The translations under genes and the position numbers were made by a program. From a virus (Duplodnaviria; Caudoviricetes), in the IMG/VR virus record IMGVR_UViG_3300025392_000232, positions 31,129 to 95,128 of that record: a stretch of DNA of 64,000 bases; one strand, 5' to 3'. The notes under the pieces are model-generated. The model made no database searches. It had not been told where the DNA came from and saw only the letters and a program-made list of their open reading frames with translations. Position 1 is the first letter of the stretch; the number at the start of each line of letters is the position of its first letter. This document shows, in pieces, positions 3,748-24,200 of this stretch.

Positions 3748-4149
3748 TTATTGTTCGAATGATGGTCTGGCAAATGTTCCAGGATCAAATGTCTGGTGCT
3801 CTACTTTACTGTGGCTACCAAATGTGTTATCGCCGGGATTTTCGTCGGTGACCATTAAGATACCTTTTATATCTGCACGACGGATAACGATCTCGTTACC
3901 ATCTTCGTCTACAACAGTAACACCGCGAGTCCAACGGCCATGTTCTAATAAAATCCATTCGCCGACTTTGACATCTTGTTGTTTTGGCCCGACCGCCCAA
4001 ACTCTTCCCCAACGATGCCTAACACCTTCGCTTTTGCCGTCATCGCTTGGCAATACAATGCCTCCGGCAGATACTCGGACATCAAAATTCATATCCGTTA
4101 CTAGTACATTGTCACGGATTGGTATAATTTTGCCAGTTACTACATTCAT
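3748..4149 (-). CDS. groES: Co-chaperonin GroES/Cpn10
   Basis: IIPIRDNVLV, SAGGIVLP, GRVWAVGP, VKVGE. Confidence 0.85.
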   Translation of the reverse strand: MNVVTGKIIPIRDNVLVTDMNFDVRVSAGGIVLPSDDGKSEGVRHRWGRVWAVGPKQQDVKVGEWILLEHGRWTRGVTVVDEDGNEIVIRRADIKGILMVTDENPGDNTFGSHSKVEHQTFDPGTFARPSFEQ

Positions 4150-4967: not shown

Positions 4968-5192
4968 TTAGTTGACTTTAACTAATTTGTCAAGGTTTTT
5001 ATTGTCCATTAATTTCTTCAAAGCCGCATTTCTTCGATTGGACAATTCTTCTTTGTAGCTGTCTAGTAACCCTGCAATCTGATCTCTTACTAGAAAATTA
5101 CTAGTCATAAAGTATTTTTTGGATAAGTCGCCGATTTTTAGTTCAAGCTCGGCGTCCTTGATTTGACTCAAATCACCTGCTAGCGGATGCAT
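4968..5192 (-). CDS. Hypothetical protein
   Basis: Operon-coupled ORF. Confidence 0.7.
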   Translation of the reverse strand: MHPLAGDLSQIKDAELELKIGDLSKKYFMTSNFLVRDQIAGLLDSYKEELSNRRNAALKKLMDNKNLDKLVKVN

Positions 5193-5785
5193 TAATATTC
5201 ACCTATGTTTTTAAGATATACAGTAGCACCTGCATTTACAGTCCATGCTTCGATAACTTCAATTTTTCCATTAGCTACTGATACAGTTGGAGGAGTTGTT
5301 CCGCCCGACCAACCAGTTGCAGTTCTGAATGTTCCGCCACCCGATGTTGCTAGCGTAGTAGTGTATGTACTAATTCCTCCTACTAACAAAATTTTAACAA
5401 CCGCGTATTGATTATTAGCAGGCCAATTGGTAAATGTTAGTACAGCATTGCCTCCAAGTGTAACTTGTTGGATAGGACCATTATTTAAATCAATGTTTGT
5501 GCTGGCCGCAACAGTTCCATTATTAAAGAATTTACCGTTAAATTGATAATAAATTCCGTTATGTAGCGTAGTACTTAACAAGTCGGTAGTACCAGAAAAT
5601 GTGTCATCATTTCCAAAACTAGCAACTCTTATAGCATTAGCCTGTAGAGTAGTAATTTCTGTTTGTGCAGATGCCAGTGCGGATTGGATAGCTGTGAAAT
5701 TATCACGGAATCCTTGGCTGTCGTTATCTTGCCCTGCTACCGGGTAAGTTGTACTAATTGTAGAGGGGTTTATCAAACTTGTCAT
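5192..5785 (-). CDS. Putative virion structural protein
   Basis: YPVAGQDNDSQGFRDNF N-terminus, coiled coil, T/G/N-rich beta region; lies in the tail operon. Confidence 0.65.
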   Translation of the reverse strand: MTSLINPSTISTTYPVAGQDNDSQGFRDNFTAIQSALASAQTEITTLQANAIRVASFGNDDTFSGTTDLLSTTLHNGIYYQFNGKFFNNGTVAASTNIDLNNGPIQQVTLGGNAVLTFTNWPANNQYAVVKILLVGGISTYTTTLATSGGGTFRTATGWSGGTTPPTVSVANGKIEVIEAWTVNAGATVYLKNIGEY

Positions 5786-8700
5786 ACTGTTATCCTATCG
5801 TTTTTGAATACTAGGTATTTATCGCCTAGATATCCGGTTACACTGTCTATTATGAATCTATCTACTGTATAGTCTAGGGCTTTAAAATCAAACCCACTAA
5901 ATTTAATATTCAGTAAAATAGTATCGGCTGTTCCTGGTTTACAAAAGCACAGCGGTACACTTAATATATACCCTAATTGTTCTTTATTTCCTTTTGGAAT
6001 ACTACGCATCCAAAGGGGTAGATAATTGCGTTCTGTTATTCCTACAGCGTTTAATCTATCTTGCCAATTAGATATACTATTGGGAAAATATGTATCCGGA
6101 TTAGGATTACTAGCTTCGTAGCCAGTACTATCTACAGTGATTTGAGGTAAATCTCTATGGCTATCTGGAGCATCAATAGTTAAGTTAGCAGAATCTACTG
6201 TCCAATAATTTACACTATTGTCTACAGTAATTGTATCAGATTCTGTTCCTGGAGTGTATACAATTTTTTGTGGGCGGCGTTTGCCGTTAGATTCGGTAGG
6301 ATCTATCATTTGAATGTATATAACTTCATAAACAGTGGCGCCGCTAATTGGATCTACAGCTAATGCTTTCTTTATACTGCCAAACTGGAAACGTTTCTTT
6401 TTATGATTTAGTCCCATTGCTCCTATATAGGCTGCCGCTGACTGTGTTTGGATTCCTGCATAGACTAACATTTTTAAATCAGATTGTAATCCAAAGTTTG
6501 GATCATTAGTTCTATAGATACTGGTACTTGGAAAGATGCTACTATTATTAATAAATGATTTCCACAGATCTCTTTGATCCGATTTTAAATATGGACGAGT
6601 TATTATATTACTGTATGCTACCGCATTTGGTGTATTAACAGTAATACTAAATTCTTGGGTAAGCGCACTGTAATTGTATTGATCTCTTGCTAGTACTGTA
6701 AATTTAAACACACGATCTATGCTAGTTGTGTTTACATCAAAAGTTACTCTTCCGCCGTCGAATGTTGTTAACCCTGGATTGCCAGTGGCAGGATCAAAGT
6801 ACTGGCGAGTAGTACCAATAATTTCTCCGTCTAGATTTAAAGTCAATCCGGGTGGCAATCTTCCTGACTGCAATTGATATAACATTACTGCATCTGGCAC
6901 AGTAGTCGTTGCACTAATAGATAACGTACTAATATAGTTTGCAGGAATAGTTCCTAAATTGCCAGGAGTATTCCAGGAGATAACACTATCGACATCTCCT
7001 ACAACAGACATAGTAAATGTTCTACTAGAGTTTAGATACTCTTTAACATTGTCGCCTAATCTTGTAGCAGTGATTGTAAAGGTATAGTTGGTTGTAACTG
7101 CTGGCTGGTAAGGTAACTGCCCATATACATCTCCAGTTCCAGCATCAAAACTCAATCCTTCTGGCAATTGACTTAACGACCCAATATAGAATGGAATACC
7201 ATTAGGTATTGGCAGTTGCAATACTTTGTTTAATGTTAGTCTGTATCTACTATTAACTAGTGTTTCTACGCCAACAATTTCATATATTAATTCAGTAGCG
7301 CCGTCTACGTAGTTGTCAAAGGTAAAGTATTGACCAACAGCCAATGTACCTTTTACATTGCCAACTGTAACTTGATTACCACCGCATAACAATGTAGTTG
7401 CATAACTTGTTCCTAATGCACCTTTAGAAAGTGTGATTGTCGATATTGTTTTAGCAACAATAGTAGTGCCTGATGCAATATTTGTACCACTTACTAGTTG
7501 TCCAACAACTAAAGAGTTTGCATTTGAAACATTAGATACTGTTGTACTATTAGCAACGAGATCTCCGCTAAAAGCTAACCCTGTAAAGTTATCAGTATTG
7601 TTAACTTGATATGTTACAGCATATACTTCTTCATTAGTTGTTTCTAATCTAAATAGTACATCCAGTGTGTCATATAGTGCAACTGGAATAGTTAGATAAT
7701 TATTAGCTCTAAATGTTCCTAAATGACTGTTTGTAATCCATACAGGAGCTCGTAAATAAGTAGCATCGCTACTAAATCCATCTGCCACTCCATTAAAGCT
7801 AGTGTTGTCAGCACGGAATTGATCAGTACCTACTACAAATATTTTAAATATTCTTTGTGCATAGTTTACACCATCAGTCAATGTAACTCTAAACTGATAG
7901 TTTACATTGAGTGTAGTCGGCGGTGCCTGTGTACGGTTAAAGTCAAAGAATACATCATCGTACTGATAGCTGTCGTAACCGTCAGTAGGAGTCTTACCAA
8001 AGTCAAATGCTACCGCATCGTAATATGCATCATCATATGTACCGTTGCCGTCTTTAGGTGTAATTTTAACAGTAGGCTGAATAAATCCGCTTAACAATCC
8101 GTCAGGACTTAATGTAATACCGGCAGGTAACGCACCATCTTCGCTAGCGATAAAATAAGTCAATTTTTGTCCGACTGCGGTGTTTAGATCAAAAGACTCG
8201 ATTTGGTAGCTGACATAAGTTTGATCTAATACATATAATTGTTGTCCAGGCCCAATTGGTAAGTAGCCCTCTCCAGTAACAAAGTTTGGAAAATTTTGTC
8301 CAGAAACTGTGATAAAAAATGCTCTGTCGCTAACACTAGATCCTTGGTTAGCACGTATACAAAAATTATAAGTTGTATTATTAGATACAATATAAGGATT
8401 ACCTTGAATCCTTGGCCCATGAAGATGTAATCCTGGCGGCAATTCTCCACTAATAACTTGCAATCCTAAATTAAATGTATCGGCATACAGACCAGCAGTT
8501 CTTGCGGTTACACTATTAACATTGCCTGCTAATAAATCTGCACGTTCGACAGCAACAAACGCATCGGCTTGCATGTGAACAGTATCGGTATTACGCAAAA
8601 TTATATCTGATAATGTACTAGATCTTAGCCATGCTAGATCAGTAGGAGCCCACGGTAAATTTTCAAACCATTGTTGATCACCGTCTCTCACATTTAACAT

Positions 8701-10176
8701 TTGGTTTACAATGATTTTCTGGAAAGTAGTGCCGACCATTGCTCCTACAGCTGGATCTTCTGCTAAACCACCTACCCACAGGTCGATGTTGTTTACATCT
8801 GTATAGGCAGTTTGAAGTGCAGTAACTACAGAACCGTCAGATGATATTTGCGCAAACGTTGTATAAGGTGTTAGGCCTAGTACTGTACGCATTTGATTTA
8901 AACTTGGTAAACCAAGATCACGACCGCGTTGTATATTTGTAGCGGCCAAATCCATTGCGGCAGGCGGATCATTCAACAAGTTTCGTAAATCATCGATAAT
9001 ATGTATGTCTAACTTGTTTGATGTATCGCTAGCTAGTTTACGTAAGAAACCATCAGCACCGCCATTACGTTCAAACTGTGCAGGTGTTAAGAAAAATGCC
9101 TGTGCAAGTGTTAAAGACTCGGTTATATTTCCTGCCTCGTCAACTCTGTCTTGTGCATCGGATACAATACTATGACCAAAACGCATAGCGGCAGCGGCAA
9201 ATTCTACAGTTATAGTTCCATCGACGCCAGGTTTAAATCCTGTGTATGCTGGAATATTATCTGCACCAACAACCTTTGGTAACCATTCTTTAAAAGTTAT
9301 ATTTTGAACTTCTGCAATGACAATACTACGAGCACGTTGATATAATTGCTCACCAGTCCAGTCTGGATGTAATGTTTTTAACTTGGCTACATGCCAGTTA
9401 TGTTCTCTAATGAATAATGTTTGTACCGATGTTAAGTCTGGATTTTCAGCACCACGCGGATCGCCAAAAATGAATTGTCCTGTTACCGGATCGATAGGAC
9501 CATACTGCCCGTTGCTAGTAGTTAATAATTTACCTGTAGTGGCAATCTGTCCACCTTCGCGCAAGTTAACTGGATTTTGAAAAGGTGTTGGCCCTTGTGG
9601 AACTCCCGGTGGATATGCAACTCCATACACCACACTAGCATCGATCCATCCGGTAACATCGTTCATAGGTAATGCAGGATGTTGTGCATCGGTTCCAGTA
9701 TTCGGTGCAACTGCACTTCTTGTAACCGGTATGTGACTACCGGGAGTTAGTTCAGTATCGCCTGCCGGAACTATAACATCAATATTACCTGTGCCAGATC
9801 TTGCAAACTCTAAGTCATGTGTTAAGAATTGGCCAAACGCATACATGAATCCACTGTAGCCGTTCGGGTCTGCTTGATTGCCATGAAAAACTGGATCTTT
9901 AACAACCAAGTTACTCACTGTTCTTGCATTAGGTAAATCAGAACGCATCTGATGTATACCATCAACATAGCTGTTTACACTTGCTCGAGCAAATGGAGCA
10001 CCTGCACTATTTCTTAAAGGTGCGGTAGGATGATGACCAGATCCGTCAAAACTTGGAGGAGGTACGCCGTTAAACGCCGCCGCACTTGCTAGCGGTAAAG
10101 GTATGTCTACTGGTAGTTCCTGGGGAAATGTTCCAAGTGAAATACCAGATTGCTGTGTCCAGACATTTAACGCCAT
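5782..10176 (-). CDS. Baseplate/virion protein with putative Ig-like repeats and an inserted animal-type heme peroxidase domain (about aa 42-540)
   Basis: Repeated (S)GxLPxGL...GxIxG Ig-like motifs; peroxidase motifs FGQFLTHD, GDPRGAE, LFIREHN, MRFGHS, NIQRGRD, IDLWVGGLAE, RDGD. Confidence 0.85.
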   Translation of the reverse strand: MALNVWTQQSGISLGTFPQELPVDIPLPLASAAAFNGVPPPSFDGSGHHPTAPLRNSAGAPFARASVNSYVDGIHQMRSDLPNARTVSNLVVKDPVFHGNQADPNGYSGFMYAFGQFLTHDLEFARSGTGNIDVIVPAGDTELTPGSHIPVTRSAVAPNTGTDAQHPALPMNDVTGWIDASVVYGVAYPPGVPQGPTPFQNPVNLREGGQIATTGKLLTTSNGQYGPIDPVTGQFIFGDPRGAENPDLTSVQTLFIREHNWHVAKLKTLHPDWTGEQLYQRARSIVIAEVQNITFKEWLPKVVGADNIPAYTGFKPGVDGTITVEFAAAAMRFGHSIVSDAQDRVDEAGNITESLTLAQAFFLTPAQFERNGGADGFLRKLASDTSNKLDIHIIDDLRNLLNDPPAAMDLAATNIQRGRDLGLPSLNQMRTVLGLTPYTTFAQISSDGSVVTALQTAYTDVNNIDLWVGGLAEDPAVGAMVGTTFQKIIVNQMLNVRDGDQQWFENLPWAPTDLAWLRSSTLSDIILRNTDTVHMQADAFVAVERADLLAGNVNSVTARTAGLYADTFNLGLQVISGELPPGLHLHGPRIQGNPYIVSNNTTYNFCIRANQGSSVSDRAFFITVSGQNFPNFVTGEGYLPIGPGQQLYVLDQTYVSYQIESFDLNTAVGQKLTYFIASEDGALPAGITLSPDGLLSGFIQPTVKITPKDGNGTYDDAYYDAVAFDFGKTPTDGYDSYQYDDVFFDFNRTQAPPTTLNVNYQFRVTLTDGVNYAQRIFKIFVVGTDQFRADNTSFNGVADGFSSDATYLRAPVWITNSHLGTFRANNYLTIPVALYDTLDVLFRLETTNEEVYAVTYQVNNTDNFTGLAFSGDLVANSTTVSNVSNANSLVVGQLVSGTNIASGTTIVAKTISTITLSKGALGTSYATTLLCGGNQVTVGNVKGTLAVGQYFTFDNYVDGATELIYEIVGVETLVNSRYRLTLNKVLQLPIPNGIPFYIGSLSQLPEGLSFDAGTGDVYGQLPYQPAVTTNYTFTITATRLGDNVKEYLNSSRTFTMSVVGDVDSVISWNTPGNLGTIPANYISTLSISATTTVPDAVMLYQLQSGRLPPGLTLNLDGEIIGTTRQYFDPATGNPGLTTFDGGRVTFDVNTTSIDRVFKFTVLARDQYNYSALTQEFSITVNTPNAVAYSNIITRPYLKSDQRDLWKSFINNSSIFPSTSIYRTNDPNFGLQSDLKMLVYAGIQTQSAAAYIGAMGLNHKKKRFQFGSIKKALAVDPISGATVYEVIYIQMIDPTESNGKRRPQKIVYTPGTESDTITVDNSVNYWTVDSANLTIDAPDSHRDLPQITVDSTGYEASNPNPDTYFPNSISNWQDRLNAVGITERNYLPLWMRSIPKGNKEQLGYILSVPLCFCKPGTADTILLNIKFSGFDFKALDYTVDRFIIDSVTGYLGDKYLVFKNDRITV

Positions 10177-10198: not shown

Positions 10199-11728
10199 TT
10201 ACTGTAATCTGTACCATGTAGTGCCAGTAGCTCTATATACATAGGTAAATGTTGTTGGTGCAGTTACGCTTCCGGCAAATGTTCCTGATAATGTTGGGCC
10301 AGCAGTTAATGCCAATGTTACTGTGTTTGTATGTACAGCAAATTGACAAATTTGCCCATCAACTGGTGCCGACGGGAATGTCAATGTTGCAGTTAATGAT
10401 CCAGCAGTTACTAACAATATATTAGTACTACTAGTTGTACTTAATACATACGTTGTTGATGAACTTACAGTTATATAATTTGGAACACTAATTTTTAAAC
10501 CAGAATGTGTCAAACTTCCGCTAACCGACATACTACCATTGTGTGTTAATAATTGTGTATGATCGATAGTAGTAGCTAATGTAGATACACCTGAACTATT
10601 GGTTGTAGAAAATTTAATTTGTCCCGGAACAAATGTAGCACCTGGAGCGGTACTTGTAACAATTTGAATAATTGCCGCAGTTGCCGCAGTAGATCCGTTA
10701 TAATATCCGCGACCCACAAGACTCATTAATACATCTTGAGATTGTACAGCAGAAGGTGTTGCATAAGTTCCTCTTGCCTTATTAAAACTTATAGTTGGGC
10801 CGCTGGCATCTGAATAAAAATTGTCAAAACGCCCAACCGGTGCACCTGTACTAAGAGCAGTTTGTCTAACAATTAAACGTCCCGAACCACCCTCTGTTGT
10901 AGTACTTGGCCCAAAAAATATCTGTCCGTCATTACCAAAACGAGCCACTGGTTGGTCGTTACCTGCCGCATCGCCTATGAAAAACATCAAATTACCTGGC
11001 ACAATACCAGCTGTAGGAGTTCCTACTACTAGTGTATTAATATATGCAGAATTTTGGAAAGCAGAACCATCGTAACCTTGCCAAGTAAGACTATGAATAA
11101 CATCACCAGTAGCTAGTGCTGTTGGAGTTATGTTAGTGCCTCTGCCTTTTCTGAACAATATACTATTTGCACCGCTAGCAACGTTGTTATAACTATCTAA
11201 TATAACTACACCACGACCAGAGTTGTTAGCAGTGACCTGTATGGTACCGTTGATATTTTGTAATAAGTTTGTAGTTTCATTCCAAGTAATATTTGCACTT
11301 GCACTTAAGGCAGTTCCGTTCGCCGCATAATAGGCCAAACTGTTTGTTGTACCTGAATTGATTACCGAGCTACTAACTGGAACAGATGCTGTAATTCTAT
11401 TATTAGCATCATCATATGTAAATGTAATATTAGTATTATAAGCGTTACCCGCAACAAATGCCGCTGCCACTGCATCCTGAGCACGTTCTGTTGTAAAGTA
11501 CAAGTTAGTTGGACTACCACTTGCTTCTGCAATGTTATCAGCAGTAAGTACAACCGCACCAGTTTGTGTGTTTACTGAGCTAACAAGGCTAACAGGATTA
11601 CCACCAGCAGTGGTACCGTCACCTATATAAACTTTTTTAGTATCGGTAGTATAAATTATTTCGCCAACACCCGGTGTTATTGCTGTTCTAGCTGTACCGT
11701 CTAAACCTCTTCTTAATTGTAATGCCAT
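10199..11728 (-). CDS. Tail fibre protein with an Mtd-N-like N-terminus
   Basis: LQLRRG...GEIIYTTDTKKVYIGDG; VSSVNTQTGAVVL; duplicated F.K.RGT..TP module. Confidence 0.75.
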   Translation of the reverse strand: MALQLRRGLDGTARTAITPGVGEIIYTTDTKKVYIGDGTTAGGNPVSLVSSVNTQTGAVVLTADNIAEASGSPTNLYFTTERAQDAVAAAFVAGNAYNTNITFTYDDANNRITASVPVSSSVINSGTTNSLAYYAANGTALSASANITWNETTNLLQNINGTIQVTANNSGRGVVILDSYNNVASGANSILFRKGRGTNITPTALATGDVIHSLTWQGYDGSAFQNSAYINTLVVGTPTAGIVPGNLMFFIGDAAGNDQPVARFGNDGQIFFGPSTTTEGGSGRLIVRQTALSTGAPVGRFDNFYSDASGPTISFNKARGTYATPSAVQSQDVLMSLVGRGYYNGSTAATAAIIQIVTSTAPGATFVPGQIKFSTTNSSGVSTLATTIDHTQLLTHNGSMSVSGSLTHSGLKISVPNYITVSSSTTYVLSTTSSTNILLVTAGSLTATLTFPSAPVDGQICQFAVHTNTVTLALTAGPTLSGTFAGSVTAPTTFTYVYRATGTTWYRLQ

Positions 11729-11743
11729 TATATTTCTCCTACC

Positions 11744-12214
11744 TTAAAAGGTACCTAAGTCGAATCCGTTTGCGGCAGGATTTGAAAATGTTCCCTGGTC
11801 GCCAAATGTTGTAGCCAGTAACGTGTTTAACTGGTTTTGTAATGCTCGCATATCTATGCCCCATACTGTAGCTTGTACATCTCCAGTACCAGTTATATTA
11901 TGACTGTTTAAATTTAAATTGCTACCCAGTGTTGCATTAGTATCTGACGATAATGTATATCCAGCAATATTAACCGATGTTGCCGTTGAAGTAACAGTTA
12001 TACCATTACTACCGGTAATTGATTTAAATTGCAATATACCTGCTGTATCTGCTACAAAAACACCCTGCCCACTACCTAAGTTAGTACCATTTATGTTGGT
12101 AATTTGACTATACAAATCTGTAAAATTTGAATTAGTTTTAGTAAATGCGGTACGGAGATCGTCCCCTGTACCGTCATTTGCATAGCTACCTAGGTTAATT
12201 GTTAGTTGAGTCAT
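11744..12214 (-). CDS. Baseplate/fibre connector protein (gp9/gp10-like N-terminus)
   Basis: INLGSYANDGTGDDLRTAFTKTNSNF. Confidence 0.7.
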   Translation of the reverse strand: MTQLTINLGSYANDGTGDDLRTAFTKTNSNFTDLYSQITNINGTNLGSGQGVFVADTAGILQFKSITGSNGITVTSTATSVNIAGYTLSSDTNATLGSNLNLNSHNITGTGDVQATVWGIDMRALQNQLNTLLATTFGDQGTFSNPAANGFDLGTF

Positions 12215-12250: not shown

Positions 12251-15200
12251 TTACGCTCTTCCAACAGCTACTTGAATTATGCCAGCTTCGCCGTAGTCCT
12301 TGTCTTCTAGGGCTTTTCCAACAATACTGCCCAATGTTGGAGTTAATGCTTTAACAGCATAGCCAGGAGTGGCACTAGTTGTCAACATATCGCCTTTCTT
12401 AACACGACCGACAACCTTACAACTTACTCGTCCTGCAAGTGCAATCAAGTTCTTCTCGCCTGGACATGCATCATACATGATGTAAGCCGCATTGTCAGAA
12501 ACAATACCAGCTAGTCTTGTATCATTCATTGTGTCAGTAGTAGTAACTTCTTTATCACCGCCAAACACTAAGACAGTACCAATTTCATAAGTCTTGTCGC
12601 CTTCATAGTATTCTGCTAAGTCAGCGGCATAGGTAGCTGTAATAGTTGCATTAGTACCCAAACTCCAAGCTCCGTTGATTGTGCCAGAACCGTAAGTTCC
12701 AGGACCGTTACCATTTAATGTAGCAGTGTTAACTGCACCACTAAAGTGTCCAGAGCCGTCGTCTGAGTTTAAGAATATACTAGCAGTACCGTTAGATGCC
12801 ACATACAATCCCCACTTGCTATTAGAAACACCACCAGGATTTTTAATAGCACCGCCTGCTCCGCTATATCCAAAACCAACACCGTACATAGTACCTAGGT
12901 CAGTGCTACCTGGAGCATAAGTTCCACCAATGCTATAAATTACACCTGAAGTACTTGTAGTTTCTACACTAGGATAGTTACCGTCTAAGTAACCTAGGCC
13001 TGCGGCAGTGCGGCGTATCTTACCGTTATGCGACCAGTTACCAGTTATAGTACCAGCGGTAGTTGCACTACCCGATGTAATGTTAGTAGTTTGTAGTGTA
13101 CCGTTGTTGAAACTGAATACAGCATTTGCACCTAATGCCCATGAACCATATAACGAACCAACAATACTTGTATCTGTAGTAGTAGCACCAGACTGAATAC
13201 TGACACTTTGTATAGTTGCATTTAACAATCCATTAACAGTTGTAGTTGCACTACCAGCCACATCAACTGTTGACAAGAAATTAAATGCACCTGGTGTATA
13301 GAAGTTTAATGTACTACCAGTAGAATCAATGGTCTTACTACCATTAACTTTTAATTGCGTTGTAGTAATTTCACCGTTGGTACCAGTTTTAACAATCTTA
13401 CTTCCAGAGCCAGTTGTTGTAATTCCTAATAATCCATAAGTGTTGTTGCTAGTATTACTATTGTCGTATTTTGCTAACATGACACTAGCCGCCGCATCGG
13501 TAGTTACGCTATTGGCAGCTCCAAACAAAACGTTCTTTATACCGTCACCATCTGTAACTACGTTAGCTGGAGTAATTAACGATGGCACTGCTGGAACACC
13601 GCTACGGTTACCTAACAAGTAACCAGTGGCCATTTGACGTAGTTTACTTAATGCAATACCGGTAGTTGAGCTAGTAGAGTCTAATAAATCTACCCAACCT
13701 GTTCCACTTACGTTAAACACATTATTGTTGAATACACTTAGACCCAAGTCTGCCTGTACAATAGCACCTGCTAGACCTGAACCGCTGGTGTTAGTTGCTA
13801 ATCCTTTAGCAACGTTCATTGCTAACTTGCTTTGAACAATAGCCGCACTGGCATTAACCATGCTGTCAACAATCACACTTCCTTGAATTGTAGTTACTAG
13901 TGTACCTGGAGTACCGTGTGTAAATGTGAATCCAATATGTGATCCAGCTGGACTACCTGTAGGAGCACTAGATGCAGGAGGAGCAATATTGGTCCACTGA
14001 CTTAGTGTGCTATCGTATAATAAGAAGTTTCCGTTAGCGTAGCTTGTGAATACAAGTGTGCCGCTAGCACCAGTTAAGTTTCCACTGAGTGTAACTGTAC
14101 CACTTGCACCTGCTGGGAATAATCCTGATGTAAGACTAACTGACAACACAGTTTGTCCGCCAGTATACCCAGACCCTGATTGTAGAACCATACCAGGAAC
14201 AATAGTTCCATATACACTACTCAAACTCAATGTATATACAGTAGGTAATCCGCCACTTGCGGCAAATCCTACGTATGTTCCAGTAGCTTTAACAGCAACA
14301 TCGCCTAATTTGTAAAGATTGTTTAGTCCTGTTGAACTCGCATCTACATAGCCTCTATTTACAGCATCGTATTGTGTAATACTACTGTTAGGCATGAACA
14401 AGTTACCAATAGTGTAACCTGCCATGTTCAAGTTACCCTTCATGGCTAATGCACCGTTTAATGCTAGGTAACCTGGCCCAATTAAGTTAGTATTAGCAAC
14501 TGGAGTACCACCATAGTCTAGACCCAATCTGTAATCAACAAAGCTACGAATAGCACTTTGGGTTGGCACAGTATCTGGTGCGTTCTGTGTCATATTTGCA
14601 TCTGTTGAGAATTCAGATACAACCACACCGCGTTTGAATCCTAGACCGTCTAAGTTACTTAACGCAATACTAGCGGAGAATGTAACTGTACCTGTACCTT
14701 GGTCAACTTTAAAGAAACGTCCTACACGGAAAATACCGTTTTGGTCTGTTGATACGTGGAATACACGACCTACTGTTTCTTCTACAACGTCATTACTATC
14801 ATTACTTGCAATAGCCGCATTACCATAAATTTGGTTTGGATAGTTTGTAGTAATGAAACCACCAGTACCAATATCTAAAAAGTCATGTCCTGTAGCACGA
14901 CAAGTACTAATACGAATAGTAATTTGTCCAGTTTGTGTCGCTGGATAACCCATACGCAATGTTGTACTTTGACTTGCATTAAATGGACGACTAATACCTA
15001 AACTACTACTTGATGCACTAGTTACTTCTTTTGCAACTACAGTGGTAGCCGCCGCACCTGCTGTACCTGGACTAAACGGATAGATTAAAGTAAGTGTTGT
15101 ACTTGATGCAGTCGAATTAGCAGTTAACCAGTAACCGTTATACAATGAGTTTGTATTACCAGTTACACGATAATATGTTCCAGCAGTAATACTTGTGCTA

Positions 15201-18200
15201 GGAATTGTAAACGATACGTTGTAGTAATTGGTATAAGTTGTACCATTGATAGTTTGTGTTGCTGTCAATGTTGGAGTACCAATGGCACTTGGAGTAATAT
15301 CCTGATTAATACCACCATAACTTGGTGAGTAGAACGTTGTAGTTGCACTACTACTTGAAGTAATAGTTGTTAACGCACTACCGCCTTTAGTATTAGCAAT
15401 AGTAATGTTATTACCAGATAAACTAACAATATAGAACGTTGGGTTAGCAGTACCAACACCTGAACCTATACCAGTTGCTTTAAAAGTTGTACCTATGTTG
15501 TTATTAGCCGCACCAATTGCAGTAAAATCTGTATAGTTTGTAGTACTACCGGATGCATTAATACCGGCACCGCTCACGATTGTATAGGAGTTACCAATTA
15601 CAAACGATCCAGCAGTCACAGCCGCAGTTGGAATCCCACCAAACGCTGTTCCACCAAATATAATCTTATTACCAATACTTACATTAGTTACTGAACTCAA
15701 TGTAATAGTACTTGGACTTGTAGTTGTAGTAGCATTACCACTTGTACCTGGGTCTGTTGGATACAACAAACTCATATTGATTGTGTTTGTACTTGCAGTA
15801 GTTGTAGTTACAACTTGTGGATTAGATGTTAATACTGCTGTCAATACACCGGTACCTGGTGTACTCCATGTCATTTGACTTCCGCTACCATCAGTTAACA
15901 CAAATACAGGAGTTAGAAGATTAGATCCACTTACTGTAATCTTATTACCAATAATACTTGCAATATAGTAGTTGGTTAATGTTTGTAAATTACCAAATGT
16001 TGTTCCGCTAAATGTAATTACGGCACCAGTTTGTAGATTAGCAGTAGAATTTAATGTGATTAAATTAGTACCGCTAGTTGTAGTCGATGCAGTTCCTGAA
16101 TTACCGCTTAGTGTAATTGTCGGAATACTAGTATATCCAGATCCAGGACTTACACGAGTAACAGAACTAATACTACCAAAGGAATCAATTGTACAAGTTG
16201 CAAGTGCATGACTTGTACTATTGTCTGCTAGGCCACCACCTGAGAACTTGATAGTCGGTGCTTTAACATATCCGCTACCTGCATTAGTAATTGTGATACT
16301 GGCTACAGTTGCTACTAGTATCGCAGTAATACTTGTGCTAGGTTGTACCCATACACCTGGACTCACTGTAAACTGAGTACTGCTATCAACACTCTGTACA
16401 ATAGTTGAACCACTAGGTGTTGTAGCGGCACCTTCGACGAATGCACCACTAGCACTAGTTGTTATAACCATACCAACTTTAATATTAGTAGTATCTGCTA
16501 CAGTAAGCTGACTTGTATTAGTTATTGCTGTAACTAGATAATTACCGTTATAGTTAGTATTGGCATTACCTGTAACACTCAGATAACTATCAACTGGAGG
16601 GTATGCATATATTGTGTTGAATGGAATCTGGTAAGTAACAACTTTACTTGTAGTACTACCAGTTGCTAGTGCATCACTGATATAGGTCATACTGTTAATA
16701 CCAGTACCATAAGCACCAATATTAGCTACTGGGTTACTATCTATTTGTAGATATCCGTTTACACTAAATCCACCAAATGTAATCGAACCACTTGGAGTTC
16801 CAGTAGCCGGTGTATCAAGAATAACTACTGCTTGTGTATTTGTAGTTCCAGGGATAACACTAGTTGTATAAGATACAACTTTTTGTGTTCCATTAAAACC
16901 AGTACCAGTTATAATTTGTCCTGCACTTATTGTACCTGAAAAGTTTTGTACTGTTAAAGTATATGTAGTACTTACTGCGGTGTAAGCACTATATAAACCA
17001 GTACCAACGCTAGTAGGTTGTACATAGCTGACAACACGATGTGTTCTGCCATTCCAAGCAAACAAGTAAGTACCAGTATTCATCTGACTGATTGTTGCGG
17101 CATCGCTAATCTGTAATACTGCAATCTTGTTATCGCCTATATTACCACCTTGTGTGCTAGTTGAGAAGTATACCGATCCTACTGCGGAAATAGCAGGAGT
17201 TCCTGACAATGTTATTACAGTATTAGCACCTGACACACTGGTACTTACAACTTTGATATTTTGGAATCCATATCCGCCAACATATTGTCCTGTGGCAATA
17301 CTACCGACAATAGATGAAGTTATCACATACAATGTTGTTCCACCACTTGTTGGAGTCAATGCTACATTAGCAGTTGCCACAGTTACAGTTGGATCAGCAT
17401 TAAACATGTTGCTGGTATCAACAACAAACTTGTAGTAGACAAACGAGCTGTCAAACTGTAACAAACTTTGGTTTGCCGGTAATTGTTCACCAGTGGACTG
17501 TACCAAGTTATACGCAATAATACGATAAATGGTAGCCAAGTTGTTTGTGTACTGCAATGCGGTACTTGGACGAACTGGTTTTACGTTATCAATGTTATAG
17601 AACAAGATATTTTGTAGTACACGCATTGTAATAACTTGTCCGTCATACAATGGATAAGCCAATCCGCCAGTTGCAGTATTTTCTGTACCAGCAGTACTCA
17701 ATGTTAGTTGTAATACGTTTTGTCCGTTAACTGTTACACTAGTATGTGTGACTGTACTGATCAAGTATCTAGTAATGCCACCACCAGCTAAGGTGTGGTC
17801 AATTTCCAATTCAGTTGTACCAGGTGGAATGTATTCCCAACCAATAGCATAAACACTCAACGCTGCCTGTGTAGCAGTAGGAGTCATTGTAGCTGTGAAC
17901 GCACCTTGCTTATAGACACGAGCACTTTGCATCATGTTATAAGATAAGTTTACACTATCTGGTTGTTCGGTAACGTCACTACCAGTACCACGTAGACCAT
18001 ATACACCGTTGGCATTAGAACCAGCTACCGAACGAATCTGGCCACCATTCAATGCCCAGTAGGCAGTATAGCAGTAGTAGGTAAATGTTGAAACTTGTTC
18101 AGTTAAACCAGCGTTGGTACACAAAATACCATAACCTAAGTCGTTGATCTGTGTATAATCGTTGGCCAACATGGACTTGTTACCGCCCATTTCCATATTA

Positions 18201-21200
18201 ATACTAATTCCAGCACCGTTGTTAACGTATGTAATTGTATTAGATGTTAATGTTGTCTTGGCAGTTACGATGTTGTTATAATCTGTAACCAGTGCGGAAG
18301 TTTGCCCATTAATCATTGATGTTAATGGAGCAGTTCTAGTGCTAGTATCAAATTTGCCATCGGCAACATAGTCTGTAAATATAGCGCATAGTGTAGCTAG
18401 TGTAGTGGCTTCTGCGCTAGTACCTGCTGTGCCTGTAGTATTTTGTGTAAGCACATTACCAGCACTCTTGGTCACAGCAGTCTTTTGAACTATCTGTCCA
18501 ACAATAGTACTTAGGTAACCAATTGCGGCACCATTCAACAATATAAGATTGCTATTGTATATCCATTGAGCAACGTCATAGCTAGCAGTTGTACCAGTAT
18601 ATAACATGTCATATGTCAATGCGTCAATTGCAAATCCAATATTATTGCTCATTGTTACTGCGCTGTAACTACTGTAACTTGCTACGTTGTAGTTAGCGGC
18701 AAGTCTTGCTACAATTTCTGCTTGTATAAATGCACGGTTAGCTTGTAATAATGTTTTTGCATTTGTTACATTTGCAGTAGCGTTTGTTGGATTAGGGAAT
18801 GTTAGTGTAGGAATACCTGCACTTGTATTACCATAGATACCGTTGACAATAATGTTGTTAACAATATTAACACTACTTGCTGCCGAACTAATGCCAGCCG
18901 CATCAACTGTTCCAAGAGTAGCAATTTGAGTTGCTATATAACTGAACGCTTGTGTTACTAGTGTTTGTGGTACACCGACTACGGCATTTTGTGGTTGCAA
19001 GAATACAATACCATACTTGACACTTTGGTAATTAGAACCAAATACCAAGTCAAGATTGACAGCATCAATTAAACTAGGTGCTGTTACACTAGCACTATTT
19101 ACTGTAATAGTTCCGCCTGACAGGTTTGTAGTTAAAATGCTGTTGCCATAACTTGCACTTGGATAAAATGGTGTAGCGGTATCTAAACCAAGTACGGCAG
19201 TATATGTTCCACTGTTATAACTTAGTACATTATTAATCTGATAACGTGCTCCTGATACATAGAACGCACAAGGTGTTTGTGGTGGGCGAACATCCAATCC
19301 ACTGTTCAAGTAACCAGTAACTGTGATAGTTTGACCAAGGCTGGCAATACTAGTAATAGTTCCTTTTAATCGTCCTGCAAATCCGTCAATGAACTGTCCA
19401 CCAGCAAAACGCTGACGGTTAGTACTTCCGGAGAAGCTAGCAGATTCTTGTGCGTACGGTGATTTAGTTTTGATCTGACCTGTTGGGTCAAGCACCATCA
19501 TGAAACCGCCGTGTCCTTGACAGCTGACTAACTTAATACGAGTTGCATCGTTACACAAGAATACGTCCATCAACTTGTTATTCTTTGGAGTACTTGTAAC
19601 ATCTAATGGATTAGTCAAGTAGTGACGTCCGTAGTTAAATGTGCCATAGATATGCCAGTTGCCAACTGTATAAGTTGCCACTGTTGCAAATGGATAGATA
19701 ACAGTACAACTCATTGTGTTGCCGCTAACAGTATTAATAACAGCCTTACCAGCAGTTCCTGTTTCGCTAGTTGCATCAACAATGATCTTACCAATCCAAT
19801 ATGGACTTGCTTGTCCAGATCCTAGAGTAGCAGTAATTGTTCCAGTTGTTCCATTGATAGATAATGTTGTTCCTGTAATGGCGGCAAAGTCAGAACTAAA
19901 ATCAATCAAACCCAGTTGCAAACCGTCAATGACTGCATCGCGATAGAAGAATGTTGTTCTCCATGGAGATTGTGAAACACGATCTAATGGACGAATAATT
20001 GTACGACGGAAGTCGTCACCGAAGATAGAAACGTTAGCTGGTAATTTGATTGGATAATCTTCGTAGTAAGTTCCTGACTCGACAAAGATTTTAATGTTCA
20101 AGTCTGCTACAGTTTCACCAAAGTCTAGCTTTTCACCAAATGTCGCATTGCTGTTAGTTAAATTACTTAGTAATGCTTTGTTCAACGTTACAGTATTGCC
20201 ACTCACCCCAGTTACAAATGTTCCAGTAGCAATTCCACCACCAGTTACACCCATGCCAACTGTAATGGTACTAATGCTATTAAATGGAATTGTATAAGTA
20301 GTTGATGATGCTGTGAGTGTATACTGTCCAATTGTTCCGGTAACAGTAGTTGGGACTACATTAAAGAATCCAGGGCGAGTCATGTTGACAGTAATTGTGT
20401 CGTAGTTTGTACTTACACCTGCGGTGTAACTTATAATTTGTCCATACGCACTACTGTTAACACCTACTAATACCTTACCAGGAATAATATGATTACTACC
20501 AGCTTGTCCTTGGTCAACAGATCCGTTACCACCGTTAGCAAATGTAATAGTGTAATAGCCAGTACCAAAACTTGGTGCAGGAGCCGCACCAATACCGTTG
20601 GCAATAATACTAACAATAGTATTCATGTTGGCATTGAACTCTGTAATTGGTGTAGCAGTAAATGTTAGTGTAGCACCATTACCAGGTGTGCCAGCTGGTG
20701 CCGCACTAATAGTAACCAAAGTTGGGCTTAGTATATTTGTAATTGTTACAGATGTAGTATTGGTAAATCCACTACCTGAAATAGTCATTCCTGGTACTAG
20801 TGTGCCAGTAACATTTGATAATGTTAATGTGGTTGTTGTATTACTTACAAATGCCGCAGTAGCAGTATTAGTTCCTACTGTGGCATTATAGGTTGTTCCA
20901 AGTGTAGCATTGGTCTGTTGTGTTACTAGTGTTTGATAACGTGTTTGTGTAACTTGATTCAAGCATTGAGTAGCCAATTGTTGTGCAAACTGTATGCCGT
21001 CAACTGTTTCTGAATATTGTGTACCAATAGCAATAGCCTTGGCTGACACGTTTTTGTAATAACTCTTACCAGCAGTGATACTTTGATATGTACCATCTGT
21101 TAATAAGTCTATGATCATCCCATCGATGATATAGCCTATATCTCGTGAACATGTAGCTTGATTATAACTAAATCCGCCTGCAAATGTAGTTGATAGATAA

Positions 21201-24200
21201 CTTATTACACTATTACTAATAGTAACTGCATTGTTTTCAATAATGCCAAATGTGGTTTGTAAACTAGAACTATAGTTAGTAGTATCGGGGTAAGTGGCAA
21301 CAGCAATTTGTACACTAGTACTAATAACACCAGTTACTAATGCTACTAAAGTAGTGATAGTAGTTGCTTGACCTGAACCAGCACTCCAGCTAGCATTGCT
21401 AACTTGATTTGTAATCTTACCGGCAACAGTTTGACTACCAGTAACTGTTGAAGCAAAGCTAACGCTTGTTGCTGTACAATTAGTTACAGTCCAGTAACCG
21501 TTGTAACCAGTAGGAGCCATTCCCTGAATGGTAATAACTTGTCCATTGGTATAAGGTGCAGATCCTTGATTAGCAAAAGTTATTGTGGCAGTTGTACCAT
21601 TACCACTAGCTCCTGTTGTTGTAATATAGTTTCCAGGAGCAGGACTTGACGCACTATTAGATATGACATCTCTAACTACGTTGCTTAGATGGTTAAGGCC
21701 GGCTAAACATGCATCTTTATGTGAAGGCAATAATTGTGCAATACCGTTGGCATAATATTGATTGGCAGCCTGCACAGTTGCAGAGTTACCGCCATAGGTA
21801 ATATCATATGCCAATGCTTCTAATACATAAGTTACATCTCGTGTTGATTGGCTTAGGCTGTAAGGAACATTAGGATATGCGTTAGTCATAAACGCATTAA
21901 TCTCAGCTGTAATATAAGGTATGTTAGCTATAATGGCAGCTTGTGCGGCAACATTACTAGCGGCCAATCCACTTGGATTAGTAAATGTTGGAGTAGTTCT
22001 AGAGTTGATACCTTGGTTTACTAAATTTAAAATATTATTAAACAAGCTGGCGATTGTTGCTTGTTGTGTAGGATCGTTTAGAACTGGGAAGTTATTGTTT
22101 ACGTAGGTAACTGCGCTGGTTTCTAAAGCAACTTTATTATACTGAATAGTTCCACTAGCAGGATTTGTAAATGCTCCAACGATTCCAGTTAATGTACTTG
22201 ATACACCAGTTAATACTGGATAGATAGAAGTTGCACTTGGCTGACTTACGCTATTAACAATAGCCTGGATACTTGCAACGTTAGCACTAATAGAACTACT
22301 AGCAACACTACCTCCAGATAATGTTACGTTAGCATACTGAATAACACCAGTTTGATATAGTGTAGCTGGTGGGTTATTGGTAATAACAGCCTGTGCTAAT
22401 GTGTTGATATAACCAATTGCCGCAACAGTTCCAGATTGTTCGTAGCTGGCAATTTGTAATTTACTATTCAACCAATATGATAATCCAGCATAGATACTTG
22501 CACTATTTCCTCCATACATTGTATCGTAACATAGTGCCCAAACAATATATTTGACATCGCGTTGGCAAGTTGTTTTACTGAATGTCAGTGTTGGGTAGTT
22601 AGCTTGCAAGTATGCAATGATTTCTGTTTGAATAAAATTAATGTTGTTTAACAACAATGATACTGCACTAGTTTCACCACTGCTAGAAACATAAGTTTCA
22701 TTTAAGAACAAGATAACATTTGATTGTATAGTACTTAGACCGGTTAGTACAGTTGTACGTGATGGGTTCTTAGAGTAGTTTACACCGTATGTATAACTTG
22801 GAGCAACACTTATTGGATTAGAACTTAGACCGTTATTGATAACATTAATCACATAACCTAAAAGTGTACTAACTTGTGTTGCAGCCTGCGAACTTCCTAC
22901 ACCAGCAGTAGTACTTTGTGTAGTATTATTACCAACAGACTTGGACCAACTTGTACTACCGGTAATTATAAAACCGATAATACTTTGCAATCTAGTAAAT
23001 GCACTAGCTACCTGTGCATATTCTTGACTAATAGTACTTACACCGCTACCATTATAGTAAGCATCTACCGCAATGACAGTAGCTGTGTTACCACCATATA
23101 GCAAGTCAAATGTTAATGCATCGATTAGGTATCCTGTGTCTCTACGACAGTTGTCTTCGTTATACAATGGAATGCTGCCAGGTACTAAATTAGCATTAAT
23201 GTATGCAATAGTCTCGTCAATTAAAAATTGGCGGTTAGCAATCAATTCAGCCGCGCCATTTGTAACACCAGACAATGCACCACCTAGTGTTGAACCTGTT
23301 GGATTACTAAATGTTAATGCTGGTGCACCTACTGTACTTACAGCGTTGATAATACTAGTAACCACATTCATACTATTAGTAATGCTAGTAATAGCCGCAG
23401 AGTCACTTAGTAACGCAATTACTTGATCTCTAGCGTAGTTTAAACCTGCAATAGTCTGTGCTTTTTGACTAGTAGTCACAGTTGAACTATAACTTCTTAA
23501 GTAAGAAAATGCCGCAGTGATTGTGCGATAATTAGTGCCAAAAATTAAATCATCTAATACTGCATTAACAATCAATCCAACGTCGCGTGAACATTTGTTA
23601 GTGTCATATGTAAATCCAGTACTTTGACTGACTGCTGGGAATGATGGTGTCGGTAGGATGCCGGTAACAATTATGTTACCAATATTGGCACAAATTGAAG
23701 TAATAGTAGCTGTTGCACTAGGAACTGCGGCTACAGCAGGTATTGCATTAATATTGACAGCAAGATTATTTAATGTACTTACAATTCCTGATGGAGCAGT
23801 AGTGCTAGCCTCCATCGATCCACCATCAGTAGTTAAACCATAAGTAGGACCATTTAGTGTTTGACTAATTGTAATTGTTGCACTGTCTAGAATACTTGCA
23901 ATGTAATAAGTATTACCTGTAATTATATTACCAAAACTTGTTCCGCTGAAAGTAATAGCAGTTCCTACTACCATACTCTTCGTACTGGCTACTGTGATAG
24001 TATTGTTAGTTCCTGTTATACTTATTGGTGCACCTAGCGTACCTGCATTTTGACTAATGCTAACTGTGTATGTACCTGCAACACCTAGACCAGTTAATAG
24101 CCCAGTAATTTTCGTACCAGCTGTTACACCAAATCCAGTAATAGTCATGCCAACTGCAAATCTACCAGCGATAGTTCCTCCTACAGTTAATACTGTTCCT

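What the first reader, a model, noticed from the sequence alone, without database searches (positions are those of the whole stretch)
8557..10053. Complete animal-type heme peroxidase domain inserted into a phage baseplate/virion protein
Seen: after about 40 N-terminal residues the 1464-aa protein contains about 500 aa bearing peroxidase-cyclooxygenase motifs: distal GQFLTHD (His120), GDPRGAE (distal Arg and the heme-ester Glu), LFIREHN, proximal RFGHS (His335), NIQRGRD and IDLWVGGLAE. It then resumes with SGELPPGL Ig-like repeats, in frame, inside the tail operon. The Asp that forms the second heme ester in MPO/LPO is Thr here. Established: these enzymes use H2O2 to oxidise halides or phenolics, or to cross-link proteins. 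Inference: a virion-displayed heme enzyme that could detoxify peroxide, cross-link the particle or oxidatively attack the host envelope. I know of no description of this in a phage particle.
Basis: partly seen in the sequence, partly recalled or inferred. Interest (0 to 1): 0.88.

Follow-up and report, generated by a model that had tools for sequence, protein, structure and literature searches.

The report
Heme peroxidase on phage fibre protein
An uncultured freshwater jumbo phage carries an apparently intact heme peroxidase, captured once from bacteria, as a swappable block inside a widespread tail-fibre-cluster protein; a redox heme enzyme on a phage particle has not been described, but nothing here has been tested at the bench.

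Summary
ORF 5782-10176 (-), 1464 aa, has a full-length PF03098 match (E 4e-116, residues 42-540). All catalytic landmarks are present, and Thr119 replaces the MPO/LPO ester Asp.

It is not a chimera: the identical protein lies on four contigs from different samples, and about 45 clusters share the architecture.

Alignment with short homologues (about 820-1100 aa) shows one clean block, residues 30-566, inserted after a shared 29-residue N-terminus.

- The 49 phage peroxidase domains form one clade, all with Thr, sister to secreted bacterial peroxidases that keep Asp.
- The block sits at two or more positions in the scaffold. Its presence flips at least 11 times on the scaffold tree, even between scaffolds 87-99% identical.
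- It is the most conserved segment (dN/dS about 0.06).
- A distant cultured homologue, Atu_ph07 gp329, carries an S8 protease instead and was detected, weakly, in purified virions.

Best reading: a virion-displayed, single-ester (DdPoxA-like) peroxidase acting on the host surface with ambient H2O2. Virion location, heme binding and activity are inferred.

This scan found the same family earlier on other genomes (e1-5368433, e1-5809992, e1-5809997).

The parts
5782..10176 (-). Whole gene, 1464 aa (P0001): N-terminal strands, inserted peroxidase, Ig (He_PIG) repeats, conserved C-terminal module
   Evidence: ORF list and translation; Pfam PF03098 plus three He_PIG stretches; identical protein on four contigs from different samples
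10090..10176 (-). Residues 1-29, the N-terminus shared with peroxidase-free homologues (W6, G11, G15, P28 invariant); predicted as two beta strands
   Evidence: Alignment A1; AF2 strands 12-18 and 23-26
8479..10089 (-). Inserted block, residues 30-566: heme peroxidase domain plus short linkers; a single clean gap in all short homologues
   Evidence: also one gap of about 535 aa in scaffold pairs that are otherwise 87-99% identical
8557..10053 (-). Pfam An_peroxidase envelope, residues 42-540 (the finding's coordinates)
   Evidence: PDB 8s6c E 1.5e-80 and 6erc E 3.9e-63; Foldseek TM 0.86 and 0.83
9814..9834 (-). Distal motif GQFLTHD: Gln116, Thr119 (in place of the ester Asp), catalytic His120, Ca-ligand Asp121
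   Evidence: Q116, T119 and H120 invariant in 34 phage homologues; Thr in 45/45 phage forms versus Asp in most cellular forms
9634..9654 (-). Ca2+-site motif TGWIDAS (T175, W177, D179, S181)
   Evidence: W177 and D179 invariant, T175 and S181 at least 90% conserved; motif present across the phage clade
9442..9465 (-). GDPRGAEN: distal Arg241 and heme-ester Glu244
   Evidence: Invariant; motif in 48/48 phage domains
9169..9183 (-). RFGHS: proximal heme ligand His335, with Arg332
   Evidence: Invariant; 47/48 phage domains
8917..8937 (-). NIQRGRD: Asn414 (H-bond partner of the proximal His), Arg419, Asp420
6685..8478 (-). Residues 567-1164: tandem cadherin-like / He_PIG Ig domains, starting with the VISGELPPGL motif
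   Evidence: Pfam He_PIG; AF2 plus Foldseek and VIA give cadherin-like hits only
5785..6684 (-). Residues 1165-1464: conserved C-terminal module of no known fold; the hallmark of the scaffold family and presumed attachment part
   Evidence: 988 representatives at E<=1e-3; homologous to the C-terminus of Atu_ph07 gp329, hhalign 99.3%, E 8e-21; no PDB or PHROG name
12251..25963 (-). Upstream giant 4570-aa fibre-like protein with a gp9/10-type N-terminal motif
   Evidence: phrog_5342 tail fibre 1e-36, phrog_4527 short tail fibre 3e-27; N-terminal motif
11744..12214 (-). 156-aa protein with a T4 gp9/gp10-like N-terminal domain
   Evidence: phrog_677 2e-9; weak PF07880 match; shares an N-terminal motif with the giant protein
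10199..11728 (-). 509-aa fibre protein with an Mtd_N domain, 22 nt upstream of the peroxidase gene
   Evidence: PF18454 2e-7; phrog_9942 tail fibre
5192..5785 (-). 197-aa downstream gene overlapping the stop codon by 4 nt (ATGA), with a fibre-type N-terminal motif; conserved partner position in relatives
   Evidence: synteny in L011, L013, L017, L018, L100

Best explanation
The gene encodes a modular appendage protein of an uncultured freshwater jumbo phage related to Atu_ph07 and the Rak2-like phages.

A widespread scaffold forms the body: a 29-residue N-terminus, tandem He_PIG/cadherin-like Ig domains, and a conserved 300-residue C-terminal module. Here it carries a 537-residue cassette that is a complete heme peroxidase of the peroxidase-cyclooxygenase superfamily.

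The cassette was captured once from secreted bacterial peroxidases. It then lost the Asp ester residue (now Thr) and has moved among related phages by recombination as an accessory module.

Proposed mechanism (inferred):
1. The domain binds host heme b in the cytoplasm.
2. It leaves the cell as part of the virion fibre apparatus.
3. It forms a single Glu244-heme ester once it meets H2O2.
4. Outside the cell it uses ambient or host-derived H2O2 to oxidise small donors (iodide, thiocyanate, phenolics), or surface components directly.
5. This modifies or loosens the host's outer layer at the point of contact. It would be an oxidative counterpart of the hydrolytic depolymerases and proteases that other phages carry on fibres.

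Shown: domain integrity, the insertion, the single phage clade, mobility, purifying selection, the fibre-cluster context.
Inferred: virion location, heme loading, catalysis, the target.
For: Domain integrity:
- Full-length PF03098 match, E 4e-116.
- PDB 8s6c E 1.5e-80, DdPoxA E 3.9e-63.
- AF2 pLDDT 78, pTM 0.76, with TM 0.86 to 8s6c.
- Q116, H120, R241, E244, H335, R332, D179, R419 and D420 are invariant over 34 homologues of 46-97% identity.
- dN/dS is about 0.06, and the domain is the most conserved segment in four pairs.

Insertion and orthology:
- One clean gap covering residues 30-566 against short forms.
- The same locus and synteny with and without the domain.

Single capture: 49 phage domains form one clade (support 100), sister to 103 bacterial sequences of about 50% identity that keep Asp and often carry RTX repeats.

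Accessory and mobile behaviour:
- At least 11 presence/absence flips on the scaffold tree.
- Pairs 87-99% identical outside the block.
- Two or more insertion positions and a third carrier, P0233.
- Other modules occur on the same scaffold: S8 protease, CBM_5_12, YHYH.

Virion link:
- The neighbours are fibre proteins.
- Atu_ph07 gp329, which shares the C-terminal module (hhalign 99.3%), was detected in purified virions along with gp326-328 (PMC6102473 Table S5).

Single-ester precedent: DdPoxA has a Glu-only ester and oxidises iodide and thiocyanate fast but bromide poorly (PMC5787809).

A Ca2+ site and secreted bacterial relatives fit an extracellular enzyme (inference).
Against: - No experiment covers any member of this family.
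- The scaffold matches no named structural family or solved phage protein.
- The record contains no capsid, sheath or baseplate genes.
- Virion detection of the Atu_ph07 homologue is weak (3 peptides, 2% coverage), and that protein is only about 27% identical over about 400 residues.
- The C-terminal AF2 model is poor (pLDDT 63).
- Heme incorporation in an unknown host is assumed.
- A few enzyme copies working at nanomolar to micromolar H2O2 may do little chemistry.
- No substrate or host is known.
Confidence: 0.55

Rival explanations
1. Cross-linking enzyme. The tethered peroxidase makes dityrosine or similar covalent links. It would either harden the phage's own fibres or fix the fibre irreversibly to host surface proteins, as ovoperoxidase, chorion peroxidase and peroxidasin do in extracellular matrices.
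For: A peroxidase joined to Ig domains is the peroxidasin layout (my own knowledge). The catalytic residues are conserved. The enzyme sits on a fibre-cluster protein.
Against: Phages whose scaffolds are otherwise 87-99% identical lack the domain, so it is not needed to build the particle. A single-ester enzyme is a poor bromide oxidant (PMC5787809), so peroxidasin-type sulfilimine chemistry is unlikely. Covalent attachment to the host remains possible.
Confidence: 0.15
2. Antioxidant role. The enzyme removes H2O2, either around the particle or inside the infected cell. It would work alongside the phage's Fe/Mn superoxide dismutase and Fe-S assembly gene.
For: SOD (26619-27179) and an IscA-like gene (25970-26293) lie just upstream of the fibre cluster.
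Against: SOD occurs in 7 related records, all with peroxidase-free scaffolds, so it is a clade feature and not linked to the peroxidase. A peroxidase needs an electron donor and makes reactive products. A few tethered copies cannot lower a diffusing solute in open water (inference). Fusion to an Ig-repeat fibre-cluster protein and the Ca2+ site fit poorly with a cytoplasmic job.
Confidence: 0.1
3. Binding module only. The fold is used as an adhesin or receptor-binding head (peroxinectin-like) and catalysis is irrelevant.
For: The scaffold also carries pure binding modules (CBM_5_12) at comparable positions.
Against: Every heme-contacting and catalytic residue is invariant across 46-97% identity, and the domain is the most constrained segment. 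Non-catalytic relatives such as the DUOX peroxidase domain lose these residues (PMC4420034).
Confidence: 0.08
4. Not a particle component. The protein acts in the infected cell or is released as a free enzyme at lysis, and the fibre-cluster position is incidental.
For: There is no direct virion evidence for this family. The scaffold has no structural annotation. Detection of the Atu_ph07 homologue is weak.
Against: The position between fibre genes is conserved in all relatives examined. The gene overlaps a downstream fibre-type gene by 4 nt. The Atu_ph07 homologue and its three neighbours were all found in purified particles.
Confidence: 0.1
5. Assembly chimera or pseudogene.
For: None found.
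Against: The identical 1464-aa protein lies on four contigs from different samples and assemblers. Its 90% cluster has 10 members. About 45 clusters share the architecture. The frame is open and under strong purifying selection.
Confidence: 0.01

Closest known systems
Secreted bacterial peroxidases of the peroxidase-cyclooxygenase superfamily (Cyanobacterium TDX16 peroxidase, PDB 8s6c; RTX-repeat 'peroxidase family proteins' of about 620-760 aa)
   Same: Same fold and catalytic set. About 50% identity to the nearest metagenomic bacterial proteins; 33% identity and TM 0.86 to 8s6c. Cys-free domain. Extracellular enzymes.
   Different: The bacterial ones keep the ester Asp (GQFxDHD) and leave the cell through signal peptides, RTX/T1SS or T9SS tags. 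The phage clade has Thr and no secretion signal, and is embedded in a phage Ig-repeat protein.
Dictyostelium DdPoxA (PDB 6erc)
   Same: The Asp ester residue is absent (Ile in DdPoxA, Thr here) while Glu is kept, so a single heme-protein ester is expected. E 3.9e-63, TM 0.83. This predicts an iodide/thiocyanate/phenolic specificity rather than chloride or bromide (PMC5787809).
   Different: DdPoxA is a eukaryotic, glycosylated, free secreted monomer. It is not the nearest relative by sequence.
Agrobacterium phage Atu_ph07 gp329 ('extracellular serine proteinase precursor', AUZ95088.1) and its Sinorhizobium phage Phosso homologue
   Same: Same scaffold idea: He_PIG repeats plus the homologous C-terminal module (hhalign 99.3%, E 8e-21). 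It lies in a fibre gene cluster and carries an enzyme head. It was detected in purified virions. These phages are also the nearest cultured relatives by DNA polymerase, at 45-49% identity.
   Different: The enzyme is a subtilase (PF00082, residues 177-459), not a peroxidase. Identity is only about 27% in the shared part. The hosts are soil alphaproteobacteria.
Phage fibre and tailspike depolymerases (for example the multi-enzyme branched fibres of Rak2-like and PhiK64-1-type jumbo phages; my own knowledge)
   Same: Swappable enzymatic modules on virion appendages that act on the host surface and shape host range. The gain, loss and exchange pattern seen here is typical of such modules.
   Different: Known modules are hydrolases, lyases, esterases or proteases without redox cofactors. 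This one needs heme, Ca2+ and H2O2.
Matrix-tethered animal peroxidases (peroxidasin, peroxinectin, ovoperoxidase; families 2-3 in PMC4420034)
   Same: A peroxidase domain joined to adhesion or Ig-type domains so that oxidation happens at a surface.
   Different: Different Ig types and domain order. The animal enzymes keep both ester residues and have known cross-linking or immune roles. There is no evolutionary link beyond the shared superfamily.

Membership tests
Peroxidase-cyclooxygenase superfamily (Pfam PF03098) | Full-length profile match above the curated cut-off | tested here: met
   389 bits against a cut-off of 25, profile positions 3-530 of 530
Peroxidase-cyclooxygenase superfamily (Pfam PF03098) | Distal Gln and catalytic His in the X-G-Q-X-X-D-H-D-X signature (PMC4420034) | tested here: met
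   Q116 and H120 are invariant in 34 homologues
Peroxidase-cyclooxygenase superfamily (Pfam PF03098) | Distal Arg and ester Glu (X-R-X-X-E-X) | tested here: met
   R241 and E244 are invariant; motif in 48/48 phage domains
Peroxidase-cyclooxygenase superfamily (Pfam PF03098) | Proximal His hydrogen-bonded to Asn | tested here: met
   H335 is invariant and N414 at least 90% conserved. The H-bond itself was not checked in 3D.
Peroxidase-cyclooxygenase superfamily (Pfam PF03098) | Ca2+-binding motif (Asp after the distal His; T-x-x-x-D-x-S loop) | tested here: met
   D121 (Asp or Glu across the clade); T175, W177, D179, S181 conserved
Peroxidase-cyclooxygenase superfamily (Pfam PF03098) | Alpha-helical peroxidase fold | tested here: met
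   AF2 model pTM 0.76; Foldseek hit to 8s6c at E 3e-38 and TM 0.86
Peroxidase-cyclooxygenase superfamily (Pfam PF03098) | Heme bound and peroxidase activity | not testable with these tools
   Needs recombinant protein
Two-ester halogenating peroxidases (MPO/LPO/LspPOX type) | Asp before the distal His forming the second heme ester | tested here: not met
   Thr119, and Thr in 45/45 phage forms. The protein is therefore not filed here. It should work like the single-ester DdPoxA type.
He_PIG / cadherin-like Ig repeat proteins (PF05345) | Pfam match and Ig fold | tested here: met
   E 7e-16 with three stretches; cadherin-like structural hits, Z about 10
Phage virion fibre / baseplate-peripheral protein | Lies among genes of recognised tail-fibre families, with conserved synteny | tested here: met
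   Giant protein phrog_5342/4527; gp9/10_N-like; Mtd_N fibre; fibre-type N-terminal motifs. Same order in relatives.
Phage virion fibre / baseplate-peripheral protein | The protein itself matches a named structural family or a solved phage tail protein | tested here: inconclusive
   No named PHROG and no PDB profile hit; fold searches return generic Ig only; the C-terminal model is of low confidence
Phage virion fibre / baseplate-peripheral protein | Detected in purified particles | tested here: inconclusive
   Only the distant homologue Atu_ph07 gp329 was detected: 3 peptides, 2.08% coverage (PMC6102473 Table S5). No data exist for this clade.

The most novel reading that the evidence does not exclude
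Phage particles of a widespread freshwater jumbo-phage clade carry a catalytically active heme peroxidase on a fibre-associated protein. They would use environmental or host-made H2O2 to attack or modify the host cell surface oxidatively. This would be the first redox, cofactor-dependent virion enzyme. It behaves as a mobile cassette exchanged between closely related phages, much like a depolymerase that sets host range or niche.
Probability: 0.35. Interest if true: 0.85.

Novelty: new variant of a known kind. Interest (0 to 1): 0.72.

Why it matters
Enzymes known on phage appendages are hydrolases, lyases, esterases and proteases.

A heme peroxidase would add oxidative chemistry to the ways a virus can deal with a cell envelope. 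It would also tie infection to ambient H2O2, which sunlight and humic matter generate in lakes.

The family gives a natural experiment: near-identical phages with and without the cassette, and the same scaffold carrying a protease, carbohydrate-binding modules or YHYH domains.

It also offers a disulfide-free peroxidase that probably folds in the cytoplasm, with a naturally fixed single-ester (Thr) active site. That is of interest to peroxidase enzymologists.

Limits: the host is unknown, and there is no virion or activity data.

Tried and rejected
- **Cultured phage genomes.** tblastn of the peroxidase part found no match, and megablast of 25 kb found none.
- **SOD-peroxidase pairing.** Rejected. 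SOD is present in 7 of 18 related records, all with peroxidase-free scaffolds, including a 356-kb record that is 96% complete.
- **Disulfide loss as a phage adaptation.** Rejected. The bacterial relatives are Cys-free too.
- **Naming the C-terminal module.** Nothing came from a PDB profile search, PHROGs, the ESM Atlas, Foldseek or VIA-align. Only generic Ig/cadherin hits appeared. The 905-residue model had pLDDT 63, and the module was never folded alone.
- **3D check of the insertion site.** I could not inspect contacts between the N-terminal strands and the first Ig domain. That the insertion lies inside that domain rests on alignment, on predicted strands, and on a He_PIG hit at residues 15-90 of P0044.
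- **Literature.** Searches for heme peroxidase with bacteriophage/virion, PF03098 with phage, and jumbo phage with peroxidase/tail found nothing relevant. The superfamily review does not mention viruses.
- **dN/dS.** A first ungapped comparison was wrong because of compensating indels. It was redone on a codon alignment. dS is about 1.4 or higher and saturated, so the ratios are rough.

Full report
**What is there.** The finding lies in ORF 5782-10176 on the minus strand (1464 aa, P0001).
- Pfam gives a full-length An_peroxidase match: PF03098, E 3.8e-116, residues 42-540, profile 3-530 of 530. It also gives three He_PIG Ig stretches.
- The window is the last 64 kb of a 95-kb IMG/VR record that CheckV rates 26% complete, so it is a fragment of a jumbo phage.
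- The phage's family-B DNA polymerase is closest to Sinorhizobium phage Phosso (49%), Agrobacterium phage Atu_ph07 (45%) and Rak2-like phages (44%).

**Is the enzyme intact?**
- By sequence, the best solved relatives are the Cyanobacterium TDX16 peroxidase (8s6c, E 1.5e-80) and Dictyostelium DdPoxA (6erc, E 3.9e-63).
- An AlphaFold model of residues 1-720, built on 34 homologues, has pLDDT 78 and pTM 0.76. It superposes on 8s6c (TM 0.86, rmsd 3.2 Å) and on 6erc (TM 0.83).
- The signature residues defined in the superfamily review (PMC4420034) are present and invariant across homologues of 46-97% identity. These are Gln116 and His120, Arg241 and Glu244, and His335 with Asn414. The Ca2+ site is also kept: D121, T175, W177, D179, S181.
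- The one departure is Thr119 in place of the Asp that forms the second heme ester. It is Thr in 45 of 45 phage forms, while most cellular relatives keep Asp.
- DdPoxA also lacks this Asp. It has a single Glu ester and oxidises iodide and thiocyanate very fast but bromide poorly (PMC5787809). That is the best functional analogue.
- The domain has no cysteines, like its bacterial relatives, so folding in the cytoplasm is plausible.
- On a codon alignment with a relative 88% identical, dN/dS is 0.06 for the peroxidase, 0.07 for the Ig part and 0.09 for the C-terminus. In all four pairs tested the peroxidase is the best-conserved segment. dS is saturated, so the ratios are rough.

**Is it real, and is it an insertion?**
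- The identical protein is encoded on four contigs from different samples and assemblers, and its 90% cluster has ten members.
- About 45 clusters of 48-96% identity share the peroxidase plus He_PIG architecture.
- The C-terminal part has more than 1,300 cluster relatives. Most are 820-1100 aa and lack a peroxidase.
- A full scan of 1.84 billion representatives finds 988 relatives at E <= 1e-3, and at least 562 IMG/VR contigs encode one.
- Aligned with six short forms, residues 1-29 match their N-termini and residues 30-566 are one clean gap. The alignment resumes at the VISG-LP-GL Ig motif.
- Short and long forms occupy the same locus: giant fibre protein, fibre gene(s), scaffold, a partner gene of about 190 aa, a 74-76-aa gene, a DNA_pol3_alpha fragment, Cpn10, then the clamp loader.

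- In a tree of 219 peroxidase domains, the 49 phage sequences form one clade (support 100). Its sister is a group of 103 bacterial sequences that all keep Asp, many with RTX repeats. This points to a single capture followed by the Asp-to-Thr change.
- Within the scaffold family the domain sits at different places:
  - after residue about 29, about 38 or about 55;
  - in P0034-40 and P0044-46, immediately before the C-terminal module;
  - in P0233, on a different N-terminus.
- On a tree of the C-terminal 300 residues (152 rows), presence or absence changes 14 times. Well-supported branches force at least 11 of these changes.
- P0026 (with the domain) and P0217 (without) differ by one gap of about 535 aa. 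Beyond the gap they are 87%, 94% and 99% identical in successive thirds toward the C-terminus. This pattern suggests the cassette is exchanged by recombination together with its flank.
- The same scaffold elsewhere carries CBM_5_12 and YHYH modules.
- In Atu_ph07 gp329 it carries a subtilase (PF00082), while the C-terminal module is shared (hhalign 99.3%, E 8e-21, 382 columns).

**Is it on the particle?** No direct evidence exists for this clade.

Indirect evidence for a virion location:
- The giant upstream protein matches tail-fibre PHROGs at E 1e-36.
- The 156-aa gene has a gp9/10-type N-terminus, the 509-aa gene has Mtd_N, and the 197-aa downstream gene overlaps the stop codon and has a fibre-type N-terminal motif.
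- Atu_ph07 gp329 was detected in purified virions by ESI-MS/MS with 3 peptides and 2.08% coverage. Its neighbours gp326-328 were detected too (PMC6102473, Supplementary Table S5).

Evidence that leaves the question open:
- The scaffold has no named structural family and no solved homologue.
- The record itself holds no capsid, sheath or baseplate genes. The fibre cluster is flanked by replication and metabolic genes.

**How it most likely works.** My best reading, at about 0.55 confidence, is that the protein is a particle appendage presenting a single-ester peroxidase to the outside.
1. Heme would be loaded in the host cytoplasm.
2. The Glu244 ester would form autocatalytically on first contact with H2O2. 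This is known for this superfamily from my own knowledge and was not tested here.
3. The enzyme would then oxidise iodide, thiocyanate or phenolic donors, or surface groups directly, at the host envelope.

The accessory, swappable behaviour mirrors fibre depolymerases, and the parallel with protease- and CBM-bearing versions favours a surface-directed role. The rivals are listed with their odds: cross-linking, antioxidant, pure adhesin, and non-virion enzyme.

The nearby SOD gene is not specifically linked to the peroxidase. It occurs in seven relatives that lack the cassette.

**Novelty.** My literature searches found no description of a heme peroxidase on a phage particle. This scan had already flagged the same family on other genomes (e1-5368433, followed up; e1-5809992 and e1-5809997, first-reader notes). 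I reached the same core reading independently. I add:
- the single-capture phylogeny;
- the multiple insertion sites;
- the gain/loss pattern;
- the selection data;
- the virion proteome link through Atu_ph07.

I rate it a new variant of a known kind: enzyme modules on phage appendages, here with an unprecedented redox, heme-dependent chemistry.

Noticed in passing
window 26619-27179 (-) and 25970-26293 (-): The phage encodes an Fe/Mn superoxide dismutase (Sod_Fe_C 4.5e-23) and an IscA/HesB-type Fe-S assembly protein (6e-19) just upstream of the fibre cluster. The SOD is conserved in relatives whether or not they carry the peroxidase.
   Followed up: yes
window 37472-38998 (-), 35279-36640 (-), 34281-35282 (-): A flavin-dependent tryptophan-halogenase-like gene (phrog_2928, 1e-80) sits next to a radical-SAM-like gene and an NAD epimerase/dehydratase. 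A cyanophage halogenase, VirX1, is known from the literature to prefer iodide (my own memory). Any link to an iodide-preferring single-ester peroxidase is pure speculation.
   Followed up: no
window 12251-25963 (-): A giant 4570-aa ORF has no Pfam hit but matches tail-fibre PHROGs. Its N-terminal motif (NDGTGD..R..F.K.NSNF) is shared with the adjacent 156-aa gene. Relatives have giants of 2631 aa or more, 3598 aa and 4472 aa at the same position.
   Followed up: partly
proteins P0235-P0253 (bacterial, 626 aa; not in the window): A group of secreted bacterial peroxidases appears circularly permuted. Pfam positions 143-530 map to residues 71-442, and the distal GQFLTHE motif lies near the C-terminus (residue 548). 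They also have Thr in place of the ester Asp.
   Followed up: partly
proteins P0041, P0043, P0029, P0031, P0038 (relatives): Some phage peroxidase domains carry an extra insert of about 40-100 residues inside the domain, after about profile position 115. That is a nested insertion within the cassette.
   Followed up: no
alignment A4 (long scaffold relatives): Six of 40 long scaffold representatives carry a YHYH domain (PF14240, best E 5e-39) and five carry CBM_5_12. These are other accessory modules on the same scaffold whose roles are unknown.
   Followed up: partly
window 4448-4957 (-), 3748-4149 (-), 2755-3675 (-): A stand-alone 169-aa fragment is related to DNA polymerase III alpha (PF07733 in relatives). 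A Cpn10/GroES-like gene and a T4-type clamp loader lie directly downstream of the fibre cluster. Relatives also encode DnaJ, ClpB and PhoH.
   Followed up: partly
L086 = IMGVR_UViG_3300023174_000036 (356,312 bp, 96% complete): This is a near-complete genome of a relative with the peroxidase-free scaffold. It would be a useful reference for the clade's full gene content and the position of the fibre cluster.
   Followed up: no
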